The translations under genes were made by a program, and so were the position numbers. The notes under the pieces are model-generated. The model was not told where the DNA came from, made no database searches, and saw nothing but the letters and a program-made list of their open reading frames with translations. Shown piece by piece: positions 2,045-11,765 of a stretch of 28,990 nt of DNA. Numbering within the stretch: position 1 is the stretch's first letter; every line of letters starts with the position of its first letter. The stretch covers positions 1 through 28,990 of the forward strand of contig VGSZ01000033.1 of NCBI GenBank assembly GCA_016874845.1. Direction: 5' to 3'. Source of the stretch: Deltaproteobacteria bacterium (GTDB lineage Bacteria; Myxococcota; UBA727; VGSZ01).

Positions 2045-2130
2045 GGATAGGAAAAACAGGGGCACTTTCCGCAGAGCCACCCCGCGCCGCCTTCGGGGAG
2101 AACCAGGCCTGACCCCCTGCGAAGACACCG
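2045..2130 (+). repeat. R90 interspersed repeat, copy 1 (GGATAGGAAAAACAGGGGCACTTTCCGC...CCCCGCGCCGCCTTCGGGG...GACCCCCTGCGAAGACACCG)
   Basis: Directly seen: ~86-bp unit with about 85-95% identity to four full-length copies plus one truncated copy. Contains nested inverted repeats CAGGGG/CCCCTG and CCCCG/CGGGG. Confidence 0.75.
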
Positions 2131-2159
2131 CGGCGATGAACAGGTCCGCGTCCGCGTAC

Positions 2160-2480
2160 CGCCTCGACTGGGCGGCCCTGCTCAAGCGCGTCTTCGCCGT
2201 CTCTGTCATGGTCTGCTCGCGCAGCGACGGGGGCCGATGAAGGTCATCGCCACCATCGAGGAGCCCACCGTCGTCAAAGCCATCCTCACCCACCTCGGTC
2301 TGCCCGCCGAGCCGCTCCCCGCCGTACACGCGCGAGCCCCGCCCACGACGGGGGAGATGTTCGAAGACCCCTGAAGCAATGGTCACCGGGGGGCCAACGG
2401 TCCTTGCCCGTCGATGCTGTGACATTCGACGGGCGGAGCCGTGTCGCAGCCCGCCCGGGAGCGGCGTCGCCGGTTGCCCT
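2160..2480 (+). mobile_element. IS91/ISCR-like element 3' terminus remnant A (transposase C-terminal ~65 aa with CxxC zinc-ribbon-like tail, plus ~105-bp terminal segment); frameshifted
   Basis: Encodes RLDWAALLKRVFAVSVMVCSRSDGG / MKVIATIEEPTVVKAILTHLGLPAEPLP, a C-terminal signature I recognise from IS91/ISCR-family (Y2) transposases. A 2-bp G-run insertion relative to copy B breaks the frame. The following ~105 bp is reverse-complementary to 9973..10067. Confidence 0.45.
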
Positions 2481-2684
2481 GGGTCGTGGGGCCACGCTCG
2501 TGACGGGCCACCGGAAGCACGACGAGCGGCTCTCTGGACTCGTGCTTGAGGACTGGCTGCGGCCCTGCAGCGGAAACCAGTTGGATTGATGCTTCGCCCC
2601 GGGCGCGGTCGCCTGTTCAGTGACACCGGTGCAACAATCATAGATCCGGCGCACCATGCGTGCGCCGGCCCCGAAAACACCAGC

Positions 2685-3824
2685 ATGAACCGCCTTCGGT
2701 CTCGTGCATCGATGGGCCCCGGGGCCACGACTCGGTCGCCGACCGCTGCGGTTCCGTCCACGCCGTCGTCGGCGACGCCGACCGCCGCGGCGGCGGATCC
2801 CGCGGCGCGCGAGGCCCTGCGGCGGTCGCTGCCCGAACTGCCGGCGCCGGGGTCGACGTTGCAGATCGTGGAGAACGGACCGCGTCAGGGGGTGAACCGC
2901 AAGCACGTCCTGCAGGACGAGGCGGGCCGTCGGTACTTCTGGAAGGCGCAGGACGCCGCGGGCTTCGCGCTGCAGCGCACGCTGCTGGCCCAGGCGCTGC
3001 GGGGGCGCGCGGGCGAGGCGGTCGTGCCCGTCCGGCCCCATGACCTCACGGTGGCGGGACAGACGACGCAAGGGCTGCTGGCGCCGTTCGTGGCGTCGAC
3101 GGGCAGCCTCGACTACGCCGTGCGCACGTTCACTCCGGCCGAGCGCCACGCGGTGCTGGCGGACCTGCCGTGGGCTTTCTTCCTCGGCAACTGGGACACC
3201 AAGCCCGACCAGTACCTGCGCGTCCACGGCACCGCCGTGAACATCGACTGGGACCAGGCGCTGTCCGACTTCGGCCGTGCGCAGCCGCGGTACGACCGGC
3301 ACACCCGGGCGCACTTCTCGCCCTTGATCCCGCCGGTGCAGGCGGCGCTGCTGCTCGAGTGGGTGCATGGCCGCACCGACGCCAATCTCGACGTCGTGCG
3401 GGACAGCGCGGCGCGCATCGCCCGGCTCACCGACGAAGACCTGCAGCAGGCGGCGCAGCCCCTTGTCGACGCAGCCTTCGGCGATGGCGGCGCCGGCCTA
3501 CCCGGCCTGCGCGACCCGGCAGCGGTGTGGGCGGCCCTGCAAGGCCGGCGCGACCGCGTGGTCGACGAGACCGATCGCCTGCTCGAGGCCCTGCGGGTCG
3601 AGCGCGCCCGCCACGGTCGCCCCCTGGCCGCGCTGGACGTCCGCCTGCTGGCCGGCCGCGCCGAGGATGCGAGCCTGCGGGCGGCCATCGCCGTCGCCCG
3701 CTCGCCGCTGGTCGAGTGGCTGTATGCCGCCCGGCAGGCAGTGGGCTCGTTGCGCCGCCCGCACCCCGACGACGACGTCGGGCCGGTGGGCACATCGCCC
3801 GCGACGTCATCGTCGGCGTCGTGA
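2685..3824 (+). CDS. hypothetical protein with atypical protein/lipid-kinase-like motifs
   Basis: ORF 2586..3824; likely start at MNRL (ATG 2685). Ordered motifs resemble a kinase fold: RYFWKAQ (beta3 Lys), GNWDTKPDQYL (catalytic-loop-like), VNIDWDQA (DFG-like). The N-terminus is Ser/Pro/Thr/Ala-rich. Confidence 0.4.
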   Translation: MNRLRSRASMGPGATTRSPTAAVPSTPSSATPTAAAADPAAREALRRSLPELPAPGSTLQIVENGPRQGVNRKHVLQDEAGRRYFWKAQDAAGFALQRTLLAQALRGRAGEAVVPVRPHDLTVAGQTTQGLLAPFVASTGSLDYAVRTFTPAERHAVLADLPWAFFLGNWDTKPDQYLRVHGTAVNIDWDQALSDFGRAQPRYDRHTRAHFSPLIPPVQAALLLEWVHGRTDANLDVVRDSAARIARLTDEDLQQAAQPLVDAAFGDGGAGLPGLRDPAAVWAALQGRRDRVVDETDRLLEALRVERARHGRPLAALDVRLLAGRAEDASLRAAIAVARSPLVEWLYAARQAVGSLRRPHPDDDVGPVGTSPATSSSAS

Positions 3825-4008
3825 AACGGGCCACAGGCCGTACTGGTCCGGCGGGTCGGAGGCGTGCTCGCCAACGCCGGCCTCGAGCGCGTGGAACTCG
3901 ACGCCGAGGTCCAGTGTCGCGCGCTCGACGCGCTGCTCGAGGGCGCCGAGCGCATGCTCGAGCAGCACGTCGAGGCGCGTGCGCGGTCGCGCCCGCGACA
4001 ACGCCGCC

Positions 4009-4146
4009 TCAGCCGGCGCGGGCGGCGAGCTTGCGCACCAATGCCTCGCCGACGGCGGCGGCCGACGCGGGGTTCTGGCCGGTGACGAGGTTGCCGTGCT
4101 CGACGACCAGCACCTGCCACTTTGACTTCTTCTGATACGTCGCGCC
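4009..4146 (-). pseudogene. C-terminal fragment of a DJ-1/PfpI/Hsp31-type (class I glutamine amidotransferase-like) gene
   Basis: The ORF 4009..4335(-) ends in KSKWQVLVVEHGNLVTGQNPASAAAVGEALV, which matches the conserved C-terminal strand/helix of DJ-1/PfpI/Hsp31 proteins. The upstream part of the ORF is low-complexity TTTTTRPPPTAAPPP and is not homologous. Confidence 0.4.
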
Positions 4147-10290: not shown

Positions 10291-10298
10291 AGAACCTG

Positions 10299-10838
10299 GT
10301 GAGGTTCGCGTACATGGGCGGGATCAAGGGGGGCGCGCGCTGCCTGCCGCTGGTGCGCGATCATGTGGATCGCATCGCCACCGTGGAGGACGAGGAGGTG
10401 GCGCGGGCGATCCTGCTCCTGCTCGGGCGGGACAAGACCGTGGCCGAGGGCGCGGGGCCAGCGGCGGTGGTGCGTGGACGCCTCGACCTGCAGGGCAAGA
10501 AGGTGTGTGCCGTGGTGTGCGACGGGAACATCGACGTGAATGTGCTGTCGCGCATCATCGAGCGCGGCCTCGTGGAGTCAGGCCGGCCGGCACGTCTCGA
10601 GGTCCTCGTCCCAGACCGCCCCGGCGCTCTTGCCGAGATGCTCGCTGAGGTGGCTCGGCAGCGCGACAACGTGGTGGAGGTGCACCACGAGCGGGCCTTC
10701 GCCCGCGGCCACCTTGGGCAGGTGGTGGTCGAGACCCGCGGGTCCGAGCACGCTCAGGAGCTCATCGCCGGGCTCGCACAGCTCGGGCATGAGGCCGTGC
10801 TTGTGAATGACGGGCGCAAGAGCCGGGCGGGCGGGTGA
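10299..10838 (+). pseudogene. ilvA: 3' fragment of threonine dehydratase (threonine ammonia-lyase) gene: end of PLP domain plus C-terminal ACT-like regulatory domain
   Basis: IATVEDEEVARAILLLLGRDKTVAEGAGPAAVV...GKKVCAVVCDGNIDVNVLSRIIERGLVESGR...LEVLVPDRPGALAEMLAEV matches the conserved C-terminal region of IlvA/TdcB-type enzymes. The frame is closed by TAG at 10290 where the IS91-like remnant abuts; the ORF track starts it at GTG. Confidence 0.7.
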
Positions 10839-10893
10839 CGACGGCGGTGCACGAGGGCCGCCCCGCACGAAGAGTCACAGCAGCTGCGCGGCG

Positions 10894-11577
10894 CTACCGC
10901 GGCCACTCGAGCCGCACCGTCGAGGATGCGCCGCGCCCGCTCGCCATGGGCGCCGTGCAGATCACCGGGTTGTATTCGGTCCCCGTGGCGCCTGGGGGCA
11001 GGGCGCAGGTGAACGAGCCGGTGGTGCGCCTCGCGTCGGGCGCGAGGTTGATGTTCGCGTGCTCGGTGCCTGACGCCGTGGTCCGCATCACCCGGACCCA
11101 GTTCACCCCCGCGTCGGCCTGGAGCTGCGCGCCGCACAGGCGCGCGAACCAGCTGCGCTCCACGCGCACGCGGTACGTGTTGGGACCGATCTGCTCGGGG
11201 ACGACCTGCTGGTGGAAGGCGCGCGGGAACCACCCGGTCCGCTGCAGCACGTCTGGGACGATGGCGCCCGGCACCCACCAGCGCGTCGCCACGTCACGCA
11301 GCTCCGCGGCCACGGGCACGGTGTTCGCGTCCGGCATCTCGAGGAGGAGCTCGGGACCATCACCGCGGCGGGCGTCGCTCACTCGCGCGGCGAGCACGCG
11401 GGCGGTGTTGTCGCGCGGCGGGGCCGGCAAAGGGCGGTCGAAGCCGTCGGCAGCACGGGTGGGCGCTTGCGGGCCGGCCAGCTCACGCGTCGGCGCGGCC
11501 GGTGCTGCGGGGCTGACGCGGCCCGCCACTGAACGGTCGAGAACGGGCCGAAGGGTCGAGGTGTTCAGGCTTGGCAT
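10894..11577 (-). CDS. hypothetical protein (Pro-rich N-terminal linker, C-terminal Trp/Cys-containing domain)
   Basis: ATG at 11575-11577 preceded by GGAG. The long ORF 10894..12210 beyond this start is an Arg-rich GC artefact; downstream of MPSLNTS the amino-acid composition is diverse. Confidence 0.4.
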   Translation of the reverse strand: MPSLNTSTLRPVLDRSVAGRVSPAAPAAPTRELAGPQAPTRAADGFDRPLPAPPRDNTARVLAARVSDARRGDGPELLLEMPDANTVPVAAELRDVATRWWVPGAIVPDVLQRTGWFPRAFHQQVVPEQIGPNTYRVRVERSWFARLCGAQLQADAGVNWVRVMRTTASGTEHANINLAPDARRTTGSFTCALPPGATGTEYNPVICTAPMASGRGASSTVRLEWPR

Positions 11578-11678
11578 GGAGTCTCCGTATGTAGGTTCAT
11601 TGCCTACGGCTGACCACTGTATCGGCGCCGCGGGCATCCGGTTGCGTGCACGGTGGGCGAACGCACTCCGGATCATGC

Positions 11679-11765
11679 GGAGAGGGAGAACAGGGGCGCT
11701 TTCCGCTGAACCACCCCGCGCCGCCTTCGGGGGGAACCAGTCCTGACCCCCTGCGAAGACACCGG
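11679..11765 (+). repeat. R90 interspersed repeat, copy 5, in the divergent intergenic region between the 10894..11577(-) gene and the large surface-protein gene
   Basis: GGAGAGGGAGAACAGGGGCGCTTTCCGCTGAACCACCCCGCGCCGCCTTCGGGGGGAACCAGTCCTGACCCCCTGCGAAGACACCGG. Confidence 0.75.

What the first reader, a model, noticed from the sequence alone, without database searches (positions are those of the whole stretch)
2045..11765. Novel ~86-bp interspersed repeat (R90): five same-orientation copies within 10 kb, all in 5'/intergenic positions
R90 copies sit at 2045, 4884, 6011 (truncated), 9886 and 11679, all on the plus strand. Each lies just upstream of a gene start or in a divergent promoter region. 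The unit has conserved nested inverted repeats (CAGGGG...CCCCG-loop-CGGGG...CCCCTG), which suggests a structured RNA or protein-binding element and not random decay. Two copies carry a shared 14-bp 3' extension, and one is directly fused to an IS91-like terminus. It could be a MITE-like element, a preferred insertion target of the IS91-like element, or a cis-regulatory RNA motif.
Basis: seen in the sequence. Interest (0 to 1): 0.65.

Follow-up and report, generated by a model that had tools for sequence, protein, structure and literature searches.

The report
Terminal end of a jumping gene
The 88-bp repeat is not a new regulatory RNA or an independent mini-element but the outer end (the replication-start end, oriIS) of an ISCR-like, IS91-family rolling-circle insertion sequence in an uncultured myxobacterium, and the five copies in this window are broken leftovers of that element.

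Summary
In detail: four near-full copies and one 37-nt stub of an ~88-bp repeat lie on the + strand at 2043, 4882, 6009, 9884 and 11677. The interpretation needs correcting. In about 20 independent metagenome loci, and in diverged relatives from other samples, the repeat continues without a break into the 3' untranslated region and C-terminal coding region of an IS91/ISCR-type transposase gene. It ends 173-193 nt after the stop codon in ...CTGTTCTTCCTATCCGC, and unrelated DNA follows. This terminus matches the ISCR2 end read from plasmid pKAZ2 at 21 of 30 positions and shares CTTCCTAT with the published ISCR1 and ISCR27 oriIS. The outer edge is sharp and constant, while the inner edge is ragged. 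R90 diverges in step with the adjoining IS sequence. I found no covariation, no excess folding energy, no Rfam match, no promoter or terminator motif, and no bias towards gene starts outside this window (12 versus 12). Copies on one contig are co-oriented in 12 of 13 adjacent pairs. Several loci carry head-to-tail "staircases" of truncated termini that all end at the same nucleotide, which looks like a footprint of transposase action at the nick site. One truncated copy shares its outer junction with a longer copy in a sister strain, so secondary rearrangement also contributes. Verdict: a new member of a known kind, of low to moderate interest.

The parts
2043..2130 (+). R90 copy 1: oriIS terminal module, positions 1-87 (bottom strand of the IS). 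The outer end is at 2043.
   Evidence: The same locus is found in L009 and L019 (99.9-100% identity).
2146..2474 (+). Inverted IS segment X: frameshifted 3' end of the transposase gene (coding to the stop at 2372-2374), the 3' UTR with hairpin 2407-2433, ending exactly at the X/R90 boundary but lacking R90. It is separated from copy 1 by 15 nt of filler (2131-2145). Most simply explained as an in-place inversion of the segment that normally follows R90.
   Evidence: Inverted repeats I1/I2 with 9968-10275; blastn to L003, L032, L023, L031 and L002 starts at 2146-2147; tblastn to P0245 aa 430-499 in two frames.
4882..4977 (+). R90 copy 2 (with a 4-nt internal deletion) plus the first ~12-14 nt of the adjoining IS sequence (GGCGACGCCGCTCC). 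The inner break is at about position 101.
6009..6045 (+). R90 copy 3: a 37-nt outer stub fused directly to a C-terminal fragment of an S-adenosylhomocysteine hydrolase gene (6046-6280).
   Evidence: Pfam PF05221 positions 232-299 of 299
9884..10342 (+). R90 copy 4 (9884-9971) continuous with the IS 3' UTR (hairpin 10009-10035) and a transposase gene remnant on the minus strand (C-terminal 76 codons at 10071-10298; a further fragment to about 10342 after an internal ~157-nt deletion relative to L003). It abuts a C-terminal threonine-dehydratase fragment (from about 10326 to 10838, + strand).
   Evidence: Pfam PALP/ACT
11677..11765 (+). R90 copy 5: a solo terminal module (positions 1-89), 67 nt upstream of the ATG of the 1643-aa gene at 11832. 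Its outer end abuts an open minus-strand ORF (10894-11676).

Best explanation
R90 is the outermost ~88 bp of an ISCR-like member of the IS91 family of rolling-circle (HUH) insertion sequences that populates a lineage of uncultured freshwater Myxococcota. It is the oriIS end. It lies downstream of the transposase gene, starts about 95-105 nt after the stop codon and terminates 183-193 nt after it in ...GCGGAAAGTGCCCCTGTTCTTCCTATCCGC| (173-182 nt in the sister subfamily). The + strand of the window carries the IS bottom strand, which by analogy with IS91 is the transferred strand.

Shown: continuity with the transposase gene in many loci and in diverged relatives; homology of the outer ~30 nt to the ISCR2 terminus, plus a shared CTTCCTAT core with the published ISCR1 and ISCR27 oriIS; a sharp, constant outer boundary with unrelated flanks; ragged inner boundaries; co-divergence with the IS; and strongest conservation of the outer 30 nt, which form an almost invariant imperfect palindrome (GCGGA.AG/CT.TCCGC).

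Inferred: the transposase recognises this end as DNA, nicks at the boundary and starts strand displacement inwards. Because initiation is fixed and termination or rejoining is error-prone, the process leaves fragments that keep the outer end and lose variable amounts of the inside. These include one-ended or abortive products such as the 229/360/679-nt IS801 miniatures, and tandem 'staircases' of truncated termini at the nick site.

Later deletions, inversions and recombination at these repeats produce further truncation. The five window copies are such remnants. They have no autonomous function, and they sit in an IS-rich, rearranged stretch that also holds fragments of housekeeping genes.
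For: (1) Of about 40 copies on 30 metagenome contigs, roughly 20 run straight from R90 into GGCGACGCCGCTCCCGGGCTGG...CCCGTCGAATGTCAC..., which is the reverse complement of window 2376-2474 downstream of the transposase fragment. Their left flanks are all different.
(2) L003 encodes a 194-aa C-terminal fragment that hits PF04986 Y2_Tnp directly. Homologues carry PF04986, and full-length ones carry PF14319+PF04986. The best NCBIfam match is ISCR clade Ia at 271 bits, against 93 bits for IS91. The nearest annotated relatives are ISCR2/ISVsa3 at 34-35% identity.
(3) In L031 and L032 (84-88% aa identity, other samples) the order is stop codon, hairpin, R90 reverse complement...CCTATCCGC, unrelated DNA. 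In L035, L036, L037, L038 and L039 (about 65% identity) only the last ~22 nt are kept and the end lies 173-182 nt after the stop.
(4) ISCR2 in pKAZ2 ends GTGAAAAGGGCGTTTATTCTTCCTATACG, 210-236 nt after its stop, and matches 21 of 30 positions. Published oriIS sequences are GTGGTTTATACTTCCTATACCC for ISCR1 (PMC13023784) and GCGGTTGAACTTCCTATACC for ISCR27, 236 bp after the stop (bioRxiv 10.1101/2021.01.14.426698).
(5) In IS91 the last 82 bp of the right end suffice for transposition, and in IS91 and IS801 the oriIS region contains two imperfect subterminal palindromes. The family makes no target duplication (PMC13181058).
(6) R90 positions 31-88 are 81-93% identical and X is 84-98% identical across the same relatives, while the outer 30 nt are 87-97% identical.
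(7) Staircases of truncated termini each end at the identical nucleotide: L037 (units of 73, 63, 53 and 44 nt after an intact 502-aa gene), L003, L022, L032 and L034.
(8) Among copies that contain the search core, the outer 23 nt are truncated once and the inner 39 nt about 11 times (binomial p about 0.03).
(9) Precedent: right-end miniatures of IS801 are mobilised by one-ended transposition (PMC3189936).
(10) Rearrangement is shown directly: L020 and L029 (a strain 94% identical) share the outer junction of copy 9884, but R90 is cut at about position 68 and followed by an unrelated 896-aa gene.
Against: No full-length transposase gene of exactly this subfamily was recovered, so current activity is unproven. 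Every copy found is truncated on the terIS side. The terIS end is not defined. No conserved target tetranucleotide is visible outside the terminus in 31 flanks, unlike IS91, IS801 and IS1294 (inspection). Inner junctions share no ter-like tetranucleotide, so classical one-ended termination is not demonstrated. The metagenome loci were found by searching for the R90 core, so the observation that all copies keep R90 is partly built in by the search. Four or five inner breaks cluster at positions 86-89, which hints at some discreteness of the 88-bp module that this model does not explain. No clean insertion with a restorable empty site was found.
Confidence: 0.87

Rival explanations
1. R90 is an independent small mobile or repeated element (MITE- or REP-like). 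The IS91-like element uses it as a preferred insertion target, always landing at its 3' edge.
For: Four solo copies end within 4 nt of the R90/X boundary (window 2130 and 11765, L012, L010). One X fragment ends at that boundary without R90 (window 2474). Further termini do accumulate at existing termini.
Against: R90 occupies the same position after the stop codon in relatives from other samples and diverges in step with the IS. Its outer 30 nt are homologous to the ISCR2 terminus and share the core of the ISCR1 and ISCR27 oriIS (and papers). Sister-subfamily elements have the same terminal ~22 nt but not the rest of R90. R90 has no terminal inverted repeats, no target duplication and no constant second end. 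The 2130 and 2474 coincidence is one event, an inversion.
Confidence: 0.05
2. R90 is a structured cis-regulatory RNA or a protein-binding regulatory site placed in 5' or divergent promoter regions.
For: In the window, all five copies sit in intergenic DNA close to gene starts. The consensus contains inverted repeats.
Against: Folding energy is no better than for shuffled sequence on either strand. There are no compensatory pairs, and variation breaks the pairs. There is no Rfam match and no promoter-like or terminator-like motif. Across independent loci, the gene beyond the outer end reads away from the element 12 times and towards it 12 times, and several copies cut ORFs. Copies are truncated at arbitrary points.
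Confidence: 0.02
3. Same identity (oriIS end), different origin: the dispersed solo or truncated copies are all decay products of once-complete insertions, through deletion, inversion or recombination. The transposase plays no part in making short forms.
For: The L020/L029 versus window polymorphism at copy 9884. The inverted X next to copy 1. Stub 6009 is fused to a gene fragment. Inner junctions share no tetranucleotide. For IS801, most genomic fragments were judged to be reorganisations (PMC3189936).
Against: Head-to-tail staircases whose units all end at the identical terminal nucleotide, found in five loci of two subfamilies, are hard to obtain by random deletion. Truncation is asymmetric, inner far more than outer (p about 0.03). 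Experimental precedent exists for miniature right-end fragments.
Confidence: 0.3

Closest known systems
ISCR elements (ISCR1, ISCR2/ISVsa3, ISCR27), the ISCR branch of the IS91 family
   Same: The transposase has PF14319+PF04986. The best NCBIfam model is ISCR clade Ia and the best annotated hits are ISCR2/ISVsa3. The oriIS lies about 170-240 nt downstream of the stop. The outer 30 nt match the ISCR2 terminus at 21 of 30 positions, and an 8-nt core, CTTCCTAT, is shared with ISCR1, ISCR2 and ISCR27 (PMC13023784; bioRxiv 10.1101/2021.01.14.426698).
   Different: Protein identity is only 34-35%, far below the NCBIfam cut-off (271 versus 925 bits). The host is an uncultured Myxococcota lineage, not a clinical gammaproteobacterium. 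There is no resistance-gene cargo. The terminus ends ...ATCCGC rather than ...ATACC(C/G). The outward promoters described for the ISCR1 oriIS region (PMC6218425) were not detected here.
IS801 right-end miniature fragments (229, 360 and 679 nt) made by one-ended transposition in Pseudomonas syringae (Bardaji et al. 2011, PMC3189936)
   Same: These are short non-coding fragments that all keep the oriIS (right) terminus of an IS91-family element and differ in how far they extend inwards. They coexist with fragments made by rearrangement and are associated with plastic genome regions.
   Different: The IS801 miniatures start at a tetranucleotide resembling the IS801 left end (GAAC-like), and their mobilisation was shown experimentally. 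Here the inner junctions share no tetranucleotide, the fragments can be as short as 8-90 nt, and mobility is untested.
IS91, IS1294 (canonical IS91 family)
   Same: Two functionally different ends. About 82 bp of the right end is sufficient in IS91. The oriIS carries imperfect subterminal palindromes. There is no target duplication. The bottom strand is transferred (PMC13181058).
   Different: The generic IS91 NCBIfam model scores only 93 bits, below its cut-off of 125. No CTTG/GTTC-type target tetranucleotide is visible next to the terminus.
Eukaryotic Helitrons (HUH rolling-circle transposons)
   Same: Works alike, from my own knowledge and not tested here: an essential initiating end, error-prone termination that produces truncated copies and captured flanking DNA, and reports of multiple or tandem termini.
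   Different: A different enzyme architecture (Rep-helicase fusion), different ends (TC...CTRR) and a different host domain. The elements here are not members of this group.

Membership tests
IS91/ISCR family insertion sequence (R90 as its oriIS end) | Encodes an HUH-type transposase with an N-terminal Zn-binding domain (PF14319) and Y2_Tnp (PF04986) | tested here: met
   Full-length relative P0245: PF14319 (E 2.5e-20) and PF04986 (E 2.2e-22). The L003 fragment (82% identical to the window remnant) hits PF04986 (E 5.8e-05, above the cut-off). An HFH motif is visible in P0013, P0015 and P0245. The window itself holds only 60-76-codon C-terminal remnants, which have no Pfam hit of their own.
IS91/ISCR family insertion sequence (R90 as its oriIS end) | oriIS at the end downstream of the transposase gene, with the conserved terminal motif of the family | tested here: met
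   The terminus lies 173-193 nt after the stop in seven relatives. It matches the ISCR2 terminus read from pKAZ2 at 21 of 30 positions. The CTTCCTAT core is shared with the published ISCR1 and ISCR27 oriIS.
IS91/ISCR family insertion sequence (R90 as its oriIS end) | Imperfect subterminal palindrome(s) at the oriIS | tested here: met
   Columns 1-8 pair with columns 23-30 in 99% of cells and are near-invariant. Two further inverted repeats are present in the consensus. Invariance gives no covariation evidence either way.
IS91/ISCR family insertion sequence (R90 as its oriIS end) | A distinct second end (terIS) upstream of the gene | tested here: inconclusive
   In the sister subfamily, L037 and L038 lose similarity upstream of GCTGAAACGGCGGTACAGGGG, while L011 and L033 start later. 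No full-length copy of the window's own subfamily was found.
IS91/ISCR family insertion sequence (R90 as its oriIS end) | Specific target tetranucleotide abutting the oriIS, and no target-site duplication | tested here: inconclusive
   No duplication is seen around the solo copies, by inspection. The 31 flanks beyond the terminus share no tetranucleotide, although the invariant terminal GC/CCGC could mask one.
IS91/ISCR family insertion sequence (R90 as its oriIS end) | Rolling-circle transposition starting at the oriIS | not testable with these tools
   Only indirect footprints are available: staircases of truncated termini ending at one nucleotide.
MITE (miniature inverted-repeat transposable element) | Terminal inverted repeats, target-site duplication, and two constant ends | tested here: not met
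   The two ends, GCGGATAGG... and ...GAAGACACCGG, are not inverted repeats. The inner end varies, with breaks at positions 37, 53-79, 86-89, 93-143, 302 and 377 or beyond. No flanking duplications are seen.
Structured cis-regulatory RNA or riboswitch | Conserved secondary structure supported by covariation, with a fixed position and strand relative to the regulated genes | tested here: not met
   z-scores from -0.45 to +1.5; 0 compensatory pairs; no Rfam match; 12 versus 12 gene orientations.
Integron attC site array | Inverse core sites RYYYAAC...GTTRRRY, with an adjacent integron integrase | tested here: not met
   The + strand of R90 contains GAAC three times but no GTT, so the inverse core sites are absent (sequence). 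No integrase domain was found among the ORFs scanned, although not every ORF was scanned.

The most novel reading that the evidence does not exclude
The head-to-tail staircases of truncated termini, all ending at one nucleotide, may be natural footprints of abortive rolling-circle initiation by an ISCR-like transposase: a nick at the oriIS, short strand displacement, then rejoining. If so, they would give nucleotide-level evidence of where this class of enzyme cuts. As of 2018, transposition of ISCR elements had not been shown experimentally (PMC6218425). By extension, the co-oriented series of 'oriIS + a few kb' units in this window could have been built by serial one-ended insertions at resident nick sites, which would be an integron-like way of accreting DNA.
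Probability: 0.2. Interest if true: 0.55.

Novelty: new member of a known kind. Interest (0 to 1): 0.25.

Why it matters
The practical value is in annotation. The repeat, the 76-aa 'adenosylhomocysteinase' and the other gene stubs in this contig should be read as IS debris in a rearranged region, not as regulatory elements or genes. The element also extends the ISCR-like branch of the IS91 family to uncultured Myxococcota, and it shows that the outer ~30 nt of the oriIS are conserved between clinical ISCR2 and these environmental elements even though the proteins are only about 35% identical. The staircases of truncated termini offer a cheap, sequence-only handle on the cleavage site and on the error modes of ISCR-type transposases, whose mechanism is still mostly inferred from IS91.

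Tried and rejected
(1) The first genome-contig scan used the middle of R90 and found 0 hits. That pattern was too strict, because it would have missed the relatives in L031 and L032.
(2) The second scan used the degenerate outer terminus and found a single hit, a fragmented uncultured Myxococcales MAG. No closed genome was available for copy-number or replication-strand analysis.
(3) The apparent synteny between L031 and window 2000-6000 (IS, ORFs, cupin, IS end) was tested with three protein comparisons and rejected.
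(4) For the empty-site test, I removed each short copy and looked for an ORF restored across the junction. A few spanning ORFs appeared, but with 153 boundary combinations and 6 frames at 72% GC they are expected by chance, and none reconstitutes a recognisable protein. The result is inconclusive.
(5) For the gene-capture test, I asked whether the AdoHcyase fragment is a recent duplicate of an intact gene. The only 100% hit is the window's own annotated 76-aa protein, and the next best hit is 76% identical. The result is inconclusive.
(6) I tried to define terIS from L037, L038, L039, L011, L008 and L033. The alignment is too ragged.
(7) I looked for a common tetranucleotide outside the terminus or at the inner junctions and found none (inspection).
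(8) A sigma-54 promoter reading of GGCAC-N5-GC was rejected by inspection, because the GG-to-GC spacing is 10 rather than 12. An attC reading was rejected because the inverse core sites are absent.
(9) Scans for sigma-70 promoters and intrinsic terminators found nothing inside any copy.
(10) A plasmid DNA search with R90+X found no match.

Full report
OBSERVATION. The repeat is real. The repeat finder recovers it as families D7, D14, D16 and D19. A 16-nt 5' probe finds 4 good matches plus one weak 3-mismatch match (0.5 expected), and a 30-nt 3' probe finds 4 (0.0 expected), all on the + strand. Copies lie at 2043-2130, 4882-4965 (plus a 14-nt extension to 4977), 6009-6045 (a stub), 9884-9971 and 11677-11765. 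The window is 68-79% G+C and is itself a complete 28,990-nt MAG contig annotated as 'Deltaproteobacteria bacterium' (P0121).

WHAT ADJOINS THE COPIES. Copy 9884 is followed by the reverse complement of a 310-nt segment that also follows copy 2043 in the forward direction (inverted repeats I1/I2). That segment, which I call X, encodes the C-terminus of an IS91-type transposase (…LKRVFAVIVMVCSRCDGPMKVIATIEEPTVVKAILTHLGLPAEP…), a stop codon and a 3' UTR with a hairpin. The stub at 6009 is fused to the last ~78 codons of an AdoHcy hydrolase gene (PF05221 positions 232-299 of 299). The IS remnant at 9884-10342 abuts a C-terminal threonine-dehydratase fragment (PALP/ACT). The contig also carries an IS21 IstB-like ORF and an IS5-like DUF772 fragment, so this is a rearranged, IS-rich stretch.

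DISTRIBUTION. An exact scan for the R90 core found nothing in 185,579 species-representative genomes but 30 metagenome contigs, nearly all from two related sample series and very often at contig ends. An nhmmer profile finds about 40 copies on them. L009 and L019 are the same genome as the window (99.9-100% identity), and L029 is a strain 94% identical. A second genome scan with a degenerate version of the outer terminus found one fragmented MAG of an uncultured Myxococcales bacterium. The repeat is therefore multi-copy and lineage-restricted.

THE KEY RESULT. I oriented all copies and printed them with flanks. All share the left edge GCGGATAGG, with unrelated DNA to its left. On the right, about 20 copies continue without interruption into GGCGACGCCGCTCCCGGGCTGG…CCCGTCGAATGTCAC…, which is the reverse complement of X. 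The remaining copies stop at scattered inner positions: 37, 53, 56, 57, 66, 68, 68, 72, about 75, 79, 86, 87, 89, 89, 93, 101, 104, 105, 107, 107, 136, 143, 143, 302, and 377 or beyond.

FAMILY. That fragment hits PF04986 (Y2_Tnp) directly, and its homologues carry PF04986. Full-length relatives of 447-502 aa carry PF14319 (Zn_Tnp_IS91) plus PF04986 and an HFH motif. NCBIfam scores them best against 'ISCR element clade Ia' (271 bits, E 1e-80, far below that model's cut-off of 925) and second against IS91 (93 bits, cut-off 125). The closest annotated genes in plasmid records are ISCR2/ISVsa3 at 34-35% identity over 92-98% of the length. The DNA itself has no match there.

R90 IS THE END OF THE ELEMENT. 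In L031 and L032 (84-88% aa identity, from unrelated samples) the order is stop codon, hairpin, R90 reverse complement ending …CTGTTCTTCCTATCCGC, then unrelated DNA, and the end lies 183-193 nt after the stop. In the sister subfamily (about 65% identity; L035, L036, L037, L038, L039, L034) most of R90 is not conserved, but the last ~22 nt are (…CCTRTTCYTCYTATCYGC), ending 173-182 nt after the stop. R90 positions 31-88 diverge in step with X (81-93% versus 84-98% identity), and the outer 30 nt are the most conserved part (87-97%).

Published oriIS sequences share the core. ISCR1 reads GTGGTTTATACTTCCTATACCC at its right end (PMC13023784). ISCR27 reads GCGGTTGAACTTCCTATACC, 236 bp after the stop (bioRxiv 10.1101/2021.01.14.426698). 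I also read an annotated ISCR2 directly (pKAZ2). There GTGAAAAGGGCGTTTATTCTTCCTATACG lies 210-236 nt after the stop, followed by the known glmM-sul2 flank, and 21 of 30 positions match the R90 outer end without gaps.

The literature states that IS91-family elements have two different ends, that the last 82 bp of the IS91 right end suffice, and that the oriIS of IS91 and IS801 has two imperfect subterminal palindromes. It also states that no target duplication is made and that the bottom strand is the functional intermediate (PMC13181058). R90 fits all of these. The window's + strand is the IS bottom strand.

TESTS OF THE RNA OR REGULATORY READING. Folding energies equal those of shuffled sequence on both strands (z from -0.45 to +1.5). 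Nineteen distinct near-full copies give a weak RNAalifold consensus (-8.8 kcal/mol, covariation term +0.2, 0 compensatory pairs). In the two inner helices every departure breaks a pair, and pair 20-72 is broken in 12 of 18 sequences. Only the outer palindrome (columns 1-8 with 23-30) is near-invariant. Rfam gives nothing at gathering score or at E<=1. No promoter-like or terminator-like motif falls in any copy. Across independent loci, the gene beyond the outer end reads away from the element in about 12 cases and towards it in about 12, and some ORFs are cut by the element. The '5' of genes' pattern is therefore local to this window.

HOW THE SHORT COPIES ARISE. I see two routes.

(a) Transposase-made. 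Five loci in two subfamilies carry head-to-tail staircases in which truncated termini of different lengths each end at the identical terminal nucleotide. L037 has units of 73, 63, 53 and 44 nt directly after the end of an intact 502-aa gene, with the outermost unit the most diverged. L003 has R90+19 nt and a shorter unit, and L022 has R90+58 nt followed by a new R90. L032 has an 8-nt unit and L034 a 48-nt unit. Random deletion would not keep reproducing the same end. Repeated action at the nick site would, whether as abortive initiation with rejoining or as re-insertion of one-ended products. Among copies that contain the search core, the outer 23 nt are truncated once (L016) and the inner 39 nt about 11 times (binomial p about 0.03). 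In P. syringae, 229-, 360- and 679-nt right-end fragments of IS801 are actively mobilised by one-ended transposition (PMC3189936).

(b) Rearrangement. L020 and L029, from a strain 94% identical to the window, share the outer junction of copy 9884. In them R90 is cut at about position 68 and is followed 17 nt later by the ATG of an unrelated 896-aa ORF. Next to copy 2043, the X segment lies inverted and ends exactly at the R90/X boundary, which is most simply one in-place inversion. The IS801 study likewise judged most genomic fragments to be reorganisations.

I could not show a clean insertion, find a common tetranucleotide at the inner junctions or beyond the terminus, or define terIS.

OPEN POINTS. 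Adjacent copies on one contig are co-oriented in 12 of 13 pairs, or 10 of 11 without the tandem array in L003 (two-sided binomial p about 0.01). This is unexplained. It could reflect strand-specific insertion, serial insertion at resident nick sites, or local duplication. Inner breaks cluster at positions 86-89. No full-length gene of this exact subfamily was recovered. The loci were ascertained through R90 itself, which inflates the impression that all fragments keep the oriIS.

VERDICT. The finding is a correct observation of a repeat whose identity is ordinary. It is the oriIS terminal module of an ISCR-like IS91-family insertion sequence, and the window copies are broken derivatives of that element. 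It is a new member of a known kind. The staircases of termini are the most interesting by-product.

Noticed in passing
L037:4182-4414; L003:109-390; L022:197-345; L032:1072-1087; L034:150-226: Head-to-tail 'staircases' of truncated IS termini. Unit lengths range from 8 to 107 nt, and every unit ends at the identical terminal nucleotide (…CCTATCCGC). In L037 the staircase directly follows the end of an intact 502-aa transposase gene, and its outermost unit is the most diverged. This may be a footprint of abortive rolling-circle initiation or of re-insertion at the nick site.
   Followed up: partly
L020:6475-6583 and L029:1-95 versus window 9837-9971: Strain-level structural polymorphism at an R90 copy. 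The outer junction and left flank are the same (94% identity), but the inner side differs: an unrelated 896-aa ORF starts 17 nt after a copy truncated at about position 68.
   Followed up: yes
window 24031-26541 (-) and 27628-28986 (-): Two eukaryote-like genes lie close together, separated by one ORF: a major-vault-protein-like ORF (MVP shoulder PF11978, E 9e-23; Vault_3) and a protein-arginine deiminase (PF03068, E 1e-64). This is unusual content for a bacterial contig.
   Followed up: no
window 6046-6280 (+); window ~10326-10838 (+); L003:2270-~2790 (+): Fragments of housekeeping genes lie directly next to IS remnants: the AdoHcy hydrolase C-terminus (annotated in NCBI as a 76-aa 'adenosylhomocysteinase'), the threonine dehydratase C-terminus, and an mnmA-like N-terminus in L003. 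Whether they are captured duplicates or broken genes could not be decided; the best non-self hit to the AdoHcyase stub is 76% identical.
   Followed up: partly
window 8446-8580: A perfect 12-nt tandem repeat (CGTCAGGCTTCA, 11.2 copies, 98% matches) lies inside the 706-aa minus-strand ORF 6512-8632. It encodes a repeated tetrapeptide (VKPD-like).
   Followed up: no
window 18815-18895: A 13-nt tandem repeat (AAGAGCAAGCCGG, 6.2 copies) whose period is not a multiple of three lies just downstream of the IstB-like (IS21 helper) domain in ORF 17622-20015.
   Followed up: no
window 16829-17170 and 17622-20015: Other mobile-element debris is present on the contig: an IS5-like DUF772 transposase fragment, and an IstB (IS21) ATPase with no IstA detected among the ORFs scanned.
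   Followed up: no
L033:1762-2316: An internally deleted copy of a related IS: transposase aa 8-85 are joined to aa 403-502. It is a candidate non-autonomous derivative that keeps both end regions.
   Followed up: no
P0245 residues ~300-320 (…LWRLCAYGARGAVASSRL…), alignment A2: By eye, the conserved stretch where IS91 transposases carry their tyrosine pair seems to hold a single Tyr in this clade. I recall, from memory, that this is typical of ISCR transposases. I did not verify it against a reference alignment.
   Followed up: no
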